Below are positions 18,348 through 27,849 of a DNA stretch of 27,921 bases, piece by piece. Location: contig JBIOXB010000121.1 in the NCBI GenBank assembly GCA_044869275.1, positions 1 to 27,921 on the forward strand, given 5' to 3'. The translations under genes were made by a program, and so were the position numbers. This DNA is from a bacterium (GTDB lineage: Bacteria > Zhuqueibacterota > Zhuqueibacteria > Zhuqueibacterales > Zhuqueibacteraceae). The notes beneath the pieces are model-generated. The model was not told where the DNA came from. It worked only from the letters and a program-made list of their open reading frames with translations, and searched no databases. Each line of letters opens with the position of its first letter. The first letter of the stretch is position 1.

Positions 18348-18388
18348 TTACGTGTTACGCATTACGTATTACGTAACGCGTAACACGT
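18348..18388. repeat. Heptamer tandem-repeat palindrome (TTACGTR family)
   Basis: TTACGTG TTACGCA TTACGTA TTACGTA followed by inverted copies; ACGTGTTACGC (18350-60) is the exact reverse complement of GCGTAACACGT (18378-88). Confidence 0.85.
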
Positions 18389-18441
18389 CATGGTGATGCG
18401 CAAAAAAGTTTTTGCATTCTATCTCTGGAGGCTTTCCGGCA

Positions 18442-19986
18442 ATGAATATTCGCCCGGATGAAATCACTTCGATTCTAAAGAAACAAATCGAAGGATTTGA
18501 AAAGAAAATCGATATCTCCGAAGTCGGCGAGGTGATTCAAGTCGGCGACGGCATCGCGCGCGTCTATGGGTTACAAAATGTGCAAGCCAGTGAACTGGTC
18601 GAATTTCCGCACGGCGTGATGGGCATGGCCTTAAACCTCGAAGCGGATAACGTCGGCATCATTCTCTTCGGCCGCGAGACTGAGGTCAAAGAGGGCGACA
18701 CCGCCAAGCGCACCGGACGGGTCATGGACGTGCCCGTCGGTCCCGAATTGCTCGGCCGCGTCGTGGATCCGTTGGGCAATCCCATCGACGGCAAAGGGCC
18801 GATCAACGCCAAGCAGCGCGGGCTGCTCGAGCGCAAAGCGCTGGGCGTGGTGCAGCGCCAGCCCGTGAAAGAGCCGCTGCAAACCGGTATCAAGGCCATC
18901 GACGGGATGATTCCCATCGGCCGCGGCCAGCGCGAGCTGATCATCGGCGATCGCGGAACCGGCAAGACCGCGGTGGCCATCGACACGATGATCAATCAAA
19001 AGGGTGGCGACGTGAAATGCATCTACGTTGCCATCGGCCAAAAAGGCTCGTCCGTGGCCCGGGTGGTCAAAATCTTGGAAGACGTGGGTGCGATGGACTT
19101 TTCCATCGTCGTTGCCGCCAATGCCAGCGATCCCGCGGCGCTGCAATACATCGCGCCTTATGCCGGTGCGGCCATGGGCGAATATTTCCGCGACCACGGC
19201 ATGCACGCCTTGATCATCTACGATGATCTTTCCAAACACGCCTCGGCCTACCGCCAGGTTTCGCTGCTGTTGCGCCGCCCGCCGGGCCGCGAAGCTTTTC
19301 CCGGTGACGTGTTCTATCTGCATTCACGCCTGCTGGAACGCGCCGCGAAACTCAACGACGACGTGAAGATGCTGCAGCATTTCGGCGTCAACAAAGGCGG
19401 TGGCTCATTGACCGCCTTGCCGATCATCGAAACGCAAGCCGGCGATGTGTCAGGCTACATTCCCACCAACGTCATTTCAATCACCGATGGCCAGATTTTT
19501 CTCGAGGGCGATTTGTTCTACGCCGGCGTGCGGCCCGCCATCAATGTGGGCATTTCCGTGAGCCGCGTCGGCGGCAGCGCGCAAATCAAAGCGATGAAGC
19601 AAGTGGCCGGCCGCCTGCGCCTGGACTTGGCGCAATATCGCGAGCTGGCGGCGTTCGCGAAATTCGGGTCGGATCTCGACAAAGCCACGCAACAGCAATT
19701 GCGGCGCGGCGAGCGTATGGTGGAATTGTTGAAACAAGATCAGTATCAGCCGCTGCCCGTGGACAAGCAGATTGCCGTGATTTTTCTCGGCGTCAACGGC
19801 TATCTCGACAACGTGCCCCTCGATCGTCTTAAAACGTTGCAAGACGAATACCTGGCCTTCTTGGAATCGAGCTACACTGAAATTCTGAGCACGCTGCGCG
19901 AAAAAAAGCAAATTGACGACGAGCTCAAAGGCAAGCTGACGCGCGCCGCGGAAGAGTTTATGAAAACACTTGAAGGAAAAAAGTAA
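18442..19986 (+). CDS. atpA: ATP synthase F1 subunit alpha
   Basis: '[11 protein letters not shown]', '[17 protein letters not shown]', '[23 protein letters not shown]', '[13 protein letters not shown]'; SD GGAGG; start is ATG 18442. Confidence 0.99.
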
Positions 19987-20853
19987 TTGGCTACCTTGCG
20001 CGACATCCGGCGGCGGATTGCCAGCGTCAAGAGCACGCAGCAAATCACCAAGGCCATGAAGATGGTGGCCGCGGCCAAGCTGCGCCGCGCGCAAGAACGC
20101 ATGATGCGCGCGCGGCCTTACGCCAAGAGCCTGGACGATTTGCTCGGGCACGTCAGCGCGAAAGTCGATCCCTCGTGGCATCCGCTGCTGGCCGTGCGCG
20201 AACCCAAGAAAGTCGCGCTGCTGGTGCTCAGCGGCGATCGCGGTTTGGCCGGCAGCTTTAATACGAATATCATTCGCCGCGCCCAAACTGAATTCCAGGC
20301 GCTGCAAAGCAATGGCGCGGAAGTTTCGTTGATTTGCCTCGGCAAGAAAGGCTACGAGCATTTCTATCGCCGCAGTTATGCCATTCTCGAAAAATACACG
20401 GGTTTCTTCAACTTTCTCGAGTTCACCCACGCGCAGGCTATAGGCCAATTGGTGCGGGAGAAGTATCTCGCCGCGGAGCTCGATCGCGTTTTTCTCGTCT
20501 ACAACGAATTTCGTTCGATCATGCTGCAGCGAATCGTGGTCAAACAATTATTGCCCATCGTGCCGCGCCCGCCGCAAGAGGAGAAATACACCAGCGCATA
20601 CATTTTCGAGCCTTCGCCGGAAAAGATCCTCGACCGCTTGTGCCCGAGATATTTGAACATCGCAATCTGGCAGGCGCTGTTGGAATCTTATGCCGCAGAG
20701 TTGGGCGCGCGCATGTCGGCGATGGACGCGGCCACCGAAAACGCACAAGAAGTGATTGGCTTGCTGCGCCTGCACTACAACAAAGCGCGCCAGGCCACCA
20801 TCACCAAAGAGCTGCTGGAAATCGTCGCAGGGGCGGAAGCATTGCAGAAGTAG
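19987..20853 (+). CDS. atpG: ATP synthase F1 subunit gamma
   Basis: 'IR-RI-SV-ST-QITKAMKMVAAAKL', 'DRGLAG-FN', 'ARM-AM--AT-NA', 'NKARQA-IT-EL-EIV-GA'; TTG start directly after the atpA stop. Confidence 0.99.
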   Translation: MATLRDIRRRIASVKSTQQITKAMKMVAAAKLRRAQERMMRARPYAKSLDDLLGHVSAKVDPSWHPLLAVREPKKVALLVLSGDRGLAGSFNTNIIRRAQTEFQALQSNGAEVSLICLGKKGYEHFYRRSYAILEKYTGFFNFLEFTHAQAIGQLVREKYLAAELDRVFLVYNEFRSIMLQRIVVKQLLPIVPRPPQEEKYTSAYIFEPSPEKILDRLCPRYLNIAIWQALLESYAAELGARMSAMDAATENAQEVIGLLRLHYNKARQATITKELLEIVAGAEALQK

Positions 20854-27700: not shown

Positions 27701-27782
27701 CCCGCTTACCAGCGGGGTTTACATTTATCGCCTGCTCACCGCCGAGAAGGCGTTTACGAGGAGGATGATCTATTTGCGATGA
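24759..27782 (+). CDS. Secreted multi-domain surface protein: 2 Ig-like + 7 carboxypeptidase-regulatory-like repeats + C-terminal T9SS-type/FlgD-Ig sorting domain
   Basis: Signal peptide ending GALA-Q; two 'TP--A-V--GQ---F......VRW-V-P--LG-I---G-F-AG' units; seven 'I-G-V...G-Y-I--L-PG-Y-V-A-A-G(F/Y)--E(F/Y)...GIDF-L' units; 'FALEQNYPNPFNP-T-I-Y...IYN-LGQ-VR-LV...WDG-D--G--L-SGVY-YRL'. Confidence 0.9.
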   Translation: MKNFRYWRTALVLLGIAGGALAQDPGTRFKLIITPHEAFVQAGQGIKFEAAVFDPEGRPQRVENVRWTVEPDTLGRITDDGFFMAGRFPGRGRVLAFAKIPALNELLQAEATVVVGRPDPLRVMVVVTPAAAFVPPGQFQQFKVEVFSPSNIPIPIQNVRWNVRPESLGRIDENGGFTAGREFGQGAIIAFVETDRGVFNGEAKVTVAARPSSAIKGKVTMANSDPAQLAGLVFAESVGPNRWRGEARIDDAGNYFIGQLAPGLYVVRAQARGFLPEFYQEAGDYLQATPVQLAANDTAESIDFSLEKGGAIQGTVGGDDRDGLLAGAHVVAVLAVRPEIRHHAISNEQGAYAIENLPSGTYAVFAEAEGYKGEYYDNAQSLLEAKLIQVAAPQMVADVHFSLAPASAIAGQVYDAVTKAAVANARIVIMPAPPSRLPIERVVETDEGGAYLASVPPGNYLVSAEARGYLLEFFDGVRQPREAKIVEVKPDERTTGINFELDQLGSISGLVVEQNDTRQPIEGALVLAFPERGSGLPPVPTPRAPLVGRTEASGAYSIAHVPPGRYYVLAEARGFLSEYWQESPEVAGAQLVEVGEGSAVTGIDFTLEQGGAISGLVVSATDGNPIAGAQVQVWSRTGNAAARGETDRTGMYHIAGLRTGEYLVAVEAKGFQSEFFDNVQTRDQATPVKIEAPHETAGIDFELQPADALRGAIAGIVVSETDGIPIPEAVVLALPLPSGRPQVAFADRLGGYKLSGLAPGRYVVFAYAPRFLGEFYDNARSFQEALPVAVEAGKEAGGIDFKLEARQRGPYLIAGTIRRGNSNQGESNAVVYAMENGLYAASAVTDDQGNFVLDEMPAGEYKVMATAPGGSAFFGGRDANSATTVSLGGGAHAGNISFSVPGGVTAVEETASQVPATFALEQNYPNPFNPETVIPYRLAGRSEVKLIIYNALGQEVRRLVSARQDAGTYRVRWDGKDNFGRPLTSGVYIYRLLTAEKAFTRRMIYLR

Positions 27783-27785
27783 TCC

Positions 27786-27849
27786 TTCCTGCTCATACTC
27801 ATACTCGCTTTTGGGTTTCTAGAAGAGCGAGTAAGAGTATGAGTAGGAG
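27786..27849 (+). repeat. Hexamer tandem-repeat hairpin (CTCATA / GAGTAN family)
   Basis: TTCCTGCTCATACTCATACTCGCTTTT (27786-812) pairs with AAGAGCGAGTAAGAGTATGAGTAGGAG (27823-849): 27 positions with 1 mismatch and 3 G-U pairs, 10-nt loop. Confidence 0.88.

What the first reader, a model, noticed from the sequence alone, without database searches (positions are those of the whole stretch)
18348..27849. One architecture, four unrelated sequences: short-period tandem-repeat hairpins sitting just after stop codons
Seen: the spacers after atpH (TTACGTR units), atpG (NNNAATT units), atpD (CAAANNN units) and the last CDS (CTCATA hexamers) each hold degenerate 6-7 nt tandem repeats followed by their inverted copies, giving stems of about 12-27 bp. 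Three of the four begin within 10 nt of the upstream stop codon. The units share no sequence, only period and palindromic layout, so this is not simple duplication of one REP. Established: heptamer STRR repeats are known in filamentous cyanobacteria. Recalled but unverified: such repeat arms often flank small 'four helix bundle' (23S rRNA IVS-like protein) genes inserted between housekeeping genes. Inference: these are empty sites or footprints of a poorly described mobile or repeat-generating system that targets gene junctions of conserved operons. They may have been co-opted as mRNA processing or stability hairpins.
Basis: partly seen in the sequence, partly recalled or inferred. Interest (0 to 1): 0.8.

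Follow-up and report, generated by a model that had tools for sequence, protein, structure and literature searches.

The report
Empty repeat-hairpin cassettes in ATP operon
Four hairpins built of 6-7-base repeats sit behind stop codons in and after this ATP-synthase operon, each belongs to its own many-copy family that comes and goes between related bacteria, and three match the repeat arms around particular subfamilies of a small four-helix-bundle gene, so they are likely gene-less forms of a little-described mobile cassette.

Summary
All four hairpins are real, and three start 1-8 nt after a stop codon. They are not unique: the genome has 259 periodic hairpins (220 in spacers against 0-2 in shuffles), and the four window types have 22, 41, 91 and 22 copies. 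In relatives, four-helix-bundle (PF05635) genes with repeat arms sit at atpG-atpD (G026) and atpD-atpC (G023), the last hairpin is missing in a same-genus genome, and one junction carries different repeat families in different genomes. Of 98 such genes, 67 have pairing flanks (9 of 671 control genes). Repeat type tracks the protein tree, for the atpG type across 11 named phylum- or class-level groups. Three window families match specific gene subfamilies; the atpD family has no clear partner gene. How the element moves is not shown: no transposase link, no target-site duplication. Selection on mRNA pairing was not detected, so co-option is unsupported. The closest known element is the ORF-bearing 23S rRNA intervening sequence. 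This scan found the same element before on other DNA (100 notes, at least 96 genomes, this genome included).

The parts
18348..18388 (.). Period-7 tandem-repeat hairpin after atpH (family F7, 22 copies in the genome); stem starts 8 nt after the stop
   Evidence: same family at this junction in G020; family model hits flanks of four-helix-bundle loci L111, L119, L121 only
20899..20949 (.). Period-7 hairpin after atpG (family F4, 41 copies); 45 nt after the stop
   Evidence: same family in G020; model hits flanks of L009 (this genome, C53), L106, L107, L108, L113 and weakly L118; a four-helix-bundle gene with hexamer arms occupies this junction in G026
22406..22475 (.). Period-7 hairpin after atpD (family F3, 91 copies); 1 nt after the stop
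   Evidence: not called at this junction in G020; other families or a four-helix-bundle cassette (G023) occupy it in relatives; no clear cognate gene (one weak flank hit, L104, 12.7 bits)
27787..27850 (.). Period-6 hairpin after the 1007-aa carboxypeptidase-regulatory-like/FlgD_ig protein gene (family F11, 22 copies); 4 nt after the stop
   Evidence: absent in G020 as a 76-column gap before a 27-nt identical block; model hits flanks of L025, L101, L052 only
17796..18341 (+). atpH (delta/OSCP), host gene upstream of hairpin 1; start taken at the ATG used
   Evidence: PF00213
18442..19986 (+). atpA
   Evidence: PF00006/PF00306/PF02874
19987..20853 (+). atpG, host gene upstream of hairpin 2
   Evidence: PF00231
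21001..22404 (+). atpD, host gene upstream of hairpin 3
   Evidence: PF00006/PF02874
22527..22940 (+). atpC
   Evidence: PF02823/PF00401
24759..27782 (+). 1007-aa CarboxypepD_reg repeat protein with C-terminal FlgD_ig domain, host gene upstream of hairpin 4
   Evidence: PF13620, PF13860

Best explanation
The four hairpins are members of four separate many-copy repeat families that turn over at gene junctions, and they are likely gene-less, non-autonomous forms of a small cassette in which a four-helix-bundle (PF05635, Avd-like) gene is enclosed by the same inverted tandem repeats. Shown: family membership, presence/absence and swapping at orthologous junctions, repeat type tied to protein subfamily, purifying selection on the gene, near-identical genes at different junctions. 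Inferred: the protein, probably a pentamer like its solved relatives, recognises its own repeat unit in RNA or single-stranded DNA and, with a host enzyme (a reverse transcriptase or recombination between repeats), helps new copies land just behind stop codons, often near an existing copy. Empty hairpins would arise when the gene is lost (by deletion of the loop, or by recombination between the two hairpins that flank some genes) and would then also be copied as units. In the atp operon they are probably tolerated passengers; cleavage of the long stems by RNase III, as in rRNA intervening sequences, is predicted but untested.
For: 67 of 98 four-helix-bundle genes from the order have flank pairing score >=13, against 9 of 671 size-matched genes of this genome. 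Repeat-type labels need 36 changes on the protein tree, shuffled mean 73.4, 0 of 200 as low (quick tree, 108 columns). Models of the atpH, atpG and last-gene families each hit the flanks of only 3, 6 and 3 of 101 gene loci. Of 78 homologues of the atpG-type gene in named genomes, 58 have pairing flanks, 67 have period-7 arrays and 28 carry the atpG-type unit, in 11 named phylum- or class-level groups (three of the 28 repeat loci already counted). 61 genes in 10 clades lie in 40 junction classes, with 90-94% identical proteins at different junctions. Cassettes stand at atpG-atpD in G026 and atpD-atpC in G023, each genome also having empty hairpins of that unit at other atp junctions. Of 180 orthologous junctions G000/G020, 42 carry an element: 17 same family, 12 different, 13 in one genome only. 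Neighbouring hairpins share a family in 21 of 71 cases within 10 kb, permutation mean 8.7, maximum 19. pN < pS in 11 of 11 gene pairs, dN/dS 0.02-0.23 in the 8 pairs with defined dS. 152 of 187 aligned F3 hits (both strands) have no inserted base, as expected if the empty form is copied whole. The model of L009 matches 2RLD, 2GSC and Avd 4DWL (TM 0.73-0.84).
Against: No mobilising enzyme is linked: no target-site duplication (15 of 245, shuffled 17.1), and none of 6 Y1 transposase genes has periodic arms. This genome (94% complete) holds no cognate gene for three of the four window families, and the largest family (atpD type) has no clear cognate among 101 loci. Hexamer-type hairpins are plentiful in genomes where I found no cognate gene (7 of 97 non-own matches were not fetched). 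The atpH-type unit flanks genes in two different clades, so the tie is not strict. Several cassettes stay at one junction across genera, so movement is slow. Junction classes rest on at most 370 nt of flank and may be over-split. No binding or RNA data. GxxExxY genes also have pairing flanks (5 of 10), so the four-helix bundle is not the only cargo.
Confidence: 0.6

Rival explanations
1. Relics only: every hairpin is the remains of a separate past insertion of a full cassette that lost its gene by random deletion; empty hairpins never move.
For: Full cassettes occur at two of the same atp junctions in relatives; truncated genes with arms exist in this genome (C177, C154, C94); some families have long variable loops.
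Against: 91 F3 copies of near-constant build, most without insertions, against about a dozen genes per genome; a tblastn with all 101 proteins found few gene remnants, and the best weak hits at 8-mer hairpins matched a translated repeat tail; genus-level expansion of F3 (63 and 58 BLAST matches in G000 and G020, at most 6 elsewhere).
Confidence: 0.17
2. Host regulatory elements: the hairpins are kept because they tune processing or stability of polycistronic mRNA (here atp subunit ratios), or are binding sites of a resident four-helix-bundle regulator.
For: Stop-proximal, depleted in divergent spacers (8 of 244 against 342 of 2779 co-directional and 34 of 310 convergent); two of the four persist in G020; the gene is under purifying selection; five junctions of one operon with a resident gene all score as F8 in G000 and F9 in G020. 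REPs within 15 nt of a stop stall ribosomes (PMC12306157, passages).
Against: Sense-strand G-U pairs are not in excess of A-C (121 against 151; the control was also flat, 56 against 51, so power is low); own arms pair no better than arms of other copies in most families; elements were called at only 8 of 18 atpD-atpC, 3 of 19 atpG-atpD and 2 of 21 atpH-atpA junctions in the order; U-tracts are rare (16 of 198).
Confidence: 0.13
3. Ordinary REP/REPIN or MITE families moved by a RAYT or IS transposase; four-helix-bundle genes are merely captured between them.
For: Many copies, intergenic, palindromic, stop-proximal; six Y1 transposase genes are present.
Against: No shared flanking tetranucleotide (commonest 4-mer in 66 of 494 ends), no target-site duplication, no periodic arrays beside any of the six transposase genes; the repeat type follows the four-helix-bundle tree across phyla.
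Confidence: 0.06
4. Local mutational products: slippage makes tandem runs and template switching makes their inverted copy, independently at each site.
For: Repeat number varies between copies; slippage probably does shape array length.
Against: A small set of units recurs genome-wide and across phyla; arm order is fixed (238 against 13); own arms are not more complementary than foreign arms, which template switching would predict; period 7 dominates (0.47-0.50 match rate against about 0.25 at most other periods).
Confidence: 0.04

Closest known systems
ORF-bearing intervening sequence (IVS) of 23S rRNA, Coxiella burnetii S23p type (PMC4990558; abstract start and passages read)
   Same: PF05635 ORF in the loop of a stem formed by terminal inverted repeats (28 bp); tandem heptamer repeats of variable number upstream of the ORF; ORF decay in some strains; RNase III cuts in the stem.
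   Different: Here the elements lie between protein genes, mostly lack the ORF, occur in tens of copies per family, in many unit types tied to protein clades; RNase III cleavage is untested.
Cyanobacterial STRR heptamer hairpins (hupS-hupL spacer, PMC2670836 passages; tRNA-Leu intron P6b loop, PMC3488679 passages)
   Same: Degenerate 7-nt tandem repeats that fold into a hairpin between genes; several repeat classes; function unknown.
   Different: Those passages give no link to a gene cassette; I did not test whether the units are homologous to the window's.
Multicopy hepta/octanucleotide repeat pairs of Geobacter metallireducens (PMC2700814 passages and supplement legends) and heptamer direct repeats of Beggiatoaceae (PMC4679880 passages)
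   Same: Intergenic tandem 7-8-nt repeats, in Geobacter paired on opposite strands at variable distance; several classes per genome.
   Different: Read there as binding sites of unidentified regulators; 'helix bundle' does not occur in the main text of PMC4679880; the Geobacter supplements themselves were not opened and may list neighbouring genes.
REP/REPIN with RAYT (PMC12306157 passages; RAYT and tetranucleotide features recalled)
   Same: Many-copy intergenic palindromes, stop-proximal, rare in divergent spacers.
   Different: Internal tandem periodicity, longer stems, no shared tetranucleotide, no link to Y1 transposases.
Avd of diversity-generating retroelements (10.1101/2023.10.23.563531 passages)
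   Same: Same fold; the paper describes Avd as a pentameric, positively charged barrel similar to S23 proteins that binds an RNA stem-loop and is needed for reverse transcription.
   Different: The cassette genes were not found next to a reverse transcriptase; this genome's true Avd (C184, beside an RT) has no pairing flanks.

Membership tests
ORF-bearing rRNA intervening sequence | Located inside an rRNA gene | tested here: not met
   All four lie between protein genes; no Rfam family reaches its threshold in the window
ORF-bearing rRNA intervening sequence | Terminal inverted repeats forming a long stem | tested here: met
ORF-bearing rRNA intervening sequence | PF05635 ORF in the loop | tested here: not met
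   Loops of 1-10 nt in the window; met for cassettes with the same arms elsewhere
ORF-bearing rRNA intervening sequence | Excised by RNase III | not testable with these tools
   No RNA run was listed
Repeat-armed four-helix-bundle cassette (empty form) | Arms match those of a gene-bearing cassette | tested here: met
   Met for atpH, atpG and last-gene types; only a weak hit for the atpD type
Repeat-armed four-helix-bundle cassette (empty form) | Polymorphic at orthologous junctions, with gene-bearing alleles | tested here: met
   the gene-bearing alleles at atp junctions carry other units than the window's hairpin at that junction
REP/REPIN-RAYT | Conserved tetranucleotide beside the palindrome (recalled feature) | tested here: not met
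REP/REPIN-RAYT | Cognate RAYT flanked by the same repeats (recalled feature) | tested here: not met
   0 of 6 Y1 transposase genes have periodic arrays within 200 nt
MITE | Target-site duplication | tested here: not met
   15 of 245, shuffled mean 17.1; true element ends are uncertain and old duplications may have decayed
STRR | Tandem heptamers, dispersed, hairpin-forming | tested here: met
   (descriptive class; the fourth hairpin is period 6)
STRR | Same unit sequences as the cyanobacterial classes | not tested
   No cyanobacterial sequence was fetched
Intrinsic terminator | GC-rich stem followed by a U-tract | tested here: not met
   16 of 198 have 5 or more T after the stem; the only window call lies inside the atpD stem itself

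The most novel reading that the evidence does not exclude
A transposase-free class of mobile element in which an Avd-like pentamer reads its own 6-10-nt repeat code in RNA, borrows a host reverse transcriptase, and copies both its gene and gene-less hairpins into positions just behind stop codons. Each protein clade would be an orthogonal repeat reader, and STRR-type repeats, the Geobacter and Beggiatoaceae repeats and ORF-bearing rRNA intervening sequences would all be products of this one system.
Probability: 0.27. Interest if true: 0.88.

Novelty: new variant of a known kind. Interest (0 to 1): 0.66.

Why it matters
Heptamer repeat hairpins have been reported without a mechanism in cyanobacteria, Geobacter and Beggiatoaceae, and the S23/IVP four-helix-bundle family has solved structures but no function. 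The data here tie the two together (repeat unit follows protein clade, across phyla) and give matched sets for testing: one atp operon with filled, empty, swapped and absent alleles at the same junctions. That makes two open questions directly testable: what the protein binds, and how the repeats spread. If recognition is clade-specific, it is also a natural set of orthogonal repeat-binding proteins.

Tried and rejected
Rfam: only MIR9563 at 30.8 bits against a cut-off of 90, rejected. RNA runs: none was listed, so no RNA ends could be mapped. Near-identical strains: an exact scan of metagenome contigs with the block behind hairpin 4 found 0, and the atpG scan returned only 44-57% identical loci, so no insertion boundary could be read at base level. 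In those 80 distant atp loci, arrays of period 7-9 were called at 10 of 50 atpG-atpD, 9 of 72 atpA-atpG, 4 of 29 atpD-atpC and 3 of 31 atpH-atpA junctions, but no four-helix-bundle gene. G-U against A-C test: no excess, low power. Covariation: own arm better than foreign arms in 29/44, 26/91, 21/41, 24/43, 15/51, 47/78, 10/22, 14/22 and 29/42 copies of nine families, that is mixed, with two families significantly in the wrong direction, which I cannot explain (similar). The base-level check of the F8-to-F9 shift in one operon was noisy because of strand ambiguity (15:7 against 8:15 units; 6 of 6 against 6 of 6 arrays), so it is suggestive only. A scan of genome contigs with the full protein alignment could not run (too divergent); a single protein was used. 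The careful tree did not finish; the quick tree is reported. Most other genes with pairing flanks are ordinary host genes that happen to have a hairpin on each side. Gene calls for G000 and G020 come from my own simple caller, which missed some short genes. Literature: nine searches listed no paper that links PF05635 genes to repeat arms outside rRNA; the library lacks most subscription papers, and supplements were not opened.
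Full report
Observation. The window holds parA, parB, an M23 peptidase, a bactofilin, a full atp operon and two genes for large exported proteins. 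They begin 8, 45, 1 and 4 nt after the stops. Three spacers fold far better than shuffles (z -3.2, -4.1, -7.5); the whole atpG spacer does not (z -0.9). Rfam has no real match.

More than chance, and genome-wide. In the 6.67-Mb genome, arms of intergenic hairpins match themselves at lag 7 in 47-50% of positions, against 23-36% at other lags. A fixed rule gives 259 periodic hairpins (179 period 7, 33 period 8, 19 period 10, 17 period 6, 11 period 9); 220 are found in 3,747 spacers against 0-2 in each of 8 shuffles. Of 198 between co-directional genes, 150 are nearer the stop and 45 nearer the start; the median gap is 27 nt, and 50 are within 10 nt. Divergent spacers are depleted (8 of 244 against 342 of 2,779 and 34 of 310). 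Clustering gives 31 groups, 15 with four or more members. HMMs find 22, 41, 91 and 22 copies of the atpH, atpG, atpD and last-gene types. So the four differ from each other, but each is a dispersed family. Arm order is fixed (238 against 13), and neighbouring hairpins share a family more often than by chance (21 of 71 within 10 kb; permutation mean 8.7). The window, with four families in a row, is an exception to that trend.

Relatives. I fetched the atp region from 20 of the 25 other genomes of the order with an atpG match. At atpD-atpC an element was called in 8 of 18 genomes, with periods 6, 7 and 8; at atpG-atpD in 3 of 19; at atpH-atpA in 2 of 21. Two junctions hold a PF05635 gene: atpG-atpD in G026, with a hexamer hairpin on each side, of the same family as the window's fourth hairpin; and atpD-atpC in G023, with another hexamer. 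In same-genus G020 the atpH and atpG hairpins are present, the atpD one is not called, and the fourth is missing as a 76-column gap before a 27-nt identical block. Over 0.75 Mb of G020 (contigs partly chosen for holding such elements), 42 of 180 orthologous junctions carry an element: 17 same family, 12 different, 13 in one genome only. The same atp junctions also take toxin-antitoxin-like genes without repeat arms (DUF433 in five genomes, BrnT-like or DUF2283 in two), so these junctions tolerate insertions in general.

The link to four-helix-bundle genes. This genome has 12 PF05635 matches; 9 have flanks that pair better than all 200 shuffles. Of the three that do not, one is a true Avd beside a reverse transcriptase. 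In the order, 23 of 29 genomes have the family; I examined 90 of the 97 non-own matches plus the 12 own, giving 101 ORFs. Of 98 with full flanks, 67 score 13 or more, against 9 of 671 control genes. Most have one arm on each side; 28 have a complete hairpin on at least one side, 6 on both. Repeat types, clustered without the tree, need 36 changes on the protein tree against 73.4 shuffled (quick tree, few columns; kin share labels, so this alone is not co-evolution). The stronger point is reach: among 78 homologues of the atpG-type gene in named genomes, 28 carry the atpG-type unit, in 11 named phylum- or class-level groups, while 39 Acidobacteriota homologues carry none of that type and mostly a different heptamer. 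Clade members stand at different junctions (61 genes, 40 classes; up to 94% identity between junctions) and are under purifying selection. The model of the atpG-type protein (pLDDT 95) matches 2RLD, 2GSC and Avd. Models of three window families hit only 3, 6 and 3 of the 101 loci; the atpD family has one weak hit. GxxExxY genes show pairing flanks in 5 of 10 cases, some with period 9-10.

How it most likely works. Shown: the window's hairpins are empty members of families whose repeat units also enclose these genes, and they are gained, lost and swapped. Inferred: the protein recognises its own unit. The signs are the clade tie across phyla, conserved and variable positions alternating within each unit, and the lack of consistent within-copy covariation, which suggests that sequence, not pairing, is what is kept. 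Avd, the same fold, is a pentamer that binds an RNA stem-loop and enables reverse transcription (10.1101/2023.10.23.563531, passages), and the genome has three reverse transcriptases; an RNA route is therefore plausible but unshown. The hairpin-gene-hairpin form offers a DNA route: recombination between the two hairpins would leave one empty hairpin, and the reverse would fill one. The uniform atpD family (152 of 187 aligned hits without insertion; expanded only in this genus) suggests that empty forms are copied too. Against all this: no target-site duplication, no transposase link, no cognate gene in this genome for three of four window families, and plentiful hexamer hairpins in genomes without a detected cognate. 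For the atpG type, the three genomes with most matches (53, 50, 36) all hold the cognate gene, but so do two with few (3 and 7).

Host use. Nothing here shows co-option. Sense-strand G-U pairs are not in excess (121 against 151 A-C; flat control), U-tracts are rare, and most relatives run the atp operon without these hairpins. The tests are weak and no RNA run was listed. A side effect on translation is possible for those within 15 nt of a stop, by analogy with REPs (PMC12306157, passages).

Known elements. The Coxiella 23S intervening sequence has the same build, including heptamer repeats before the ORF and RNase III cuts in the stem (PMC4990558, passages), but the window's elements fail its location and ORF criteria. 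STRR hairpins (PMC2670836, PMC3488679), Geobacter repeat pairs (PMC2700814; PMC2996986 notes similar families) and Beggiatoaceae heptamers (PMC4679880) describe the empty look without a gene link in the passages read. REP/RAYT and MITE features were tested and not met. Nine searches listed no paper on the cassette outside rRNA; supplements were not opened. Earlier notes of this scan describe the same element in at least 96 genomes and on other pieces of this one; they are not independent support, and the numbers above are my own.

Verdict. Real feature; a new variant of a known kind (IVS-like cassette in mRNA operons with many gene-less copies); mechanism open; interest 0.66.

Noticed in passing
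window 27864-27890: A 27-nt block behind the fourth hairpin is identical in G020 although the spacer around it differs; its ends are complementary. No Rfam match; 0 exact hits in metagenome contigs.
   Followed up: partly
window 20849-20870: A few bases across the atpG stop resemble, by eye, a short arm of another family (F13); possibly a remnant of an earlier element at this junction.
   Followed up: no
L017, L018, L020, L022, L024 (atpH-atpA); L020, L023 (atpG-atpD): DUF433 genes (twice in G024) and BrnT-like or DUF2283 genes are inserted inside the atp operon of several relatives, without periodic arms. G028 has a further two-gene insert at atpG-atpD that looks HicAB-like by eye, not confirmed.
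   Followed up: partly
G000:C98:15196-19720 and L146:6160-10700: Five successive junctions of one operon that holds a four-helix-bundle gene score as family F8 in G000 and as the related F9 in G020, hinting at concerted change; the base-level check was noisy.
   Followed up: partly
G000:C184:4194-6051 (L010): A diversity-generating retroelement layout: bAvd-like gene, a repeat resembling the end of the upstream gene, and a reverse transcriptase.
   Followed up: partly
G000:C98:22143, C33:35381, C109:8674 (L171, L172, L174): Three small GIY-YIG genes have pairing flanks (scores 18-24) without periodic arrays: another kind of inverted-repeat-bounded small gene.
   Followed up: partly
G000:C235:3701, C113:9458, C235:16631, C203:25990: GxxExxY (PF13366) genes have pairing flanks, two with period 9-10 arms, and matching empty hairpin families exist (for example F6, 51 copies).
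   Followed up: partly
G000:C173, C185, C31, C129, C152, C179: Family F5-like arrays border a series of genes of about 800 codons; the genes were not annotated here.
   Followed up: no
L038, L043 downstream flanks: Long right-arm arrays resemble, by eye, the heptamer direct repeat described for Beggiatoaceae in PMC4679880; not tested.
   Followed up: no
G000:C190:8009-8461: A Y1 transposase gene has long non-periodic inverted flanks (pair score about 40), a separate REP/RAYT-like system in the same genome.
   Followed up: partly
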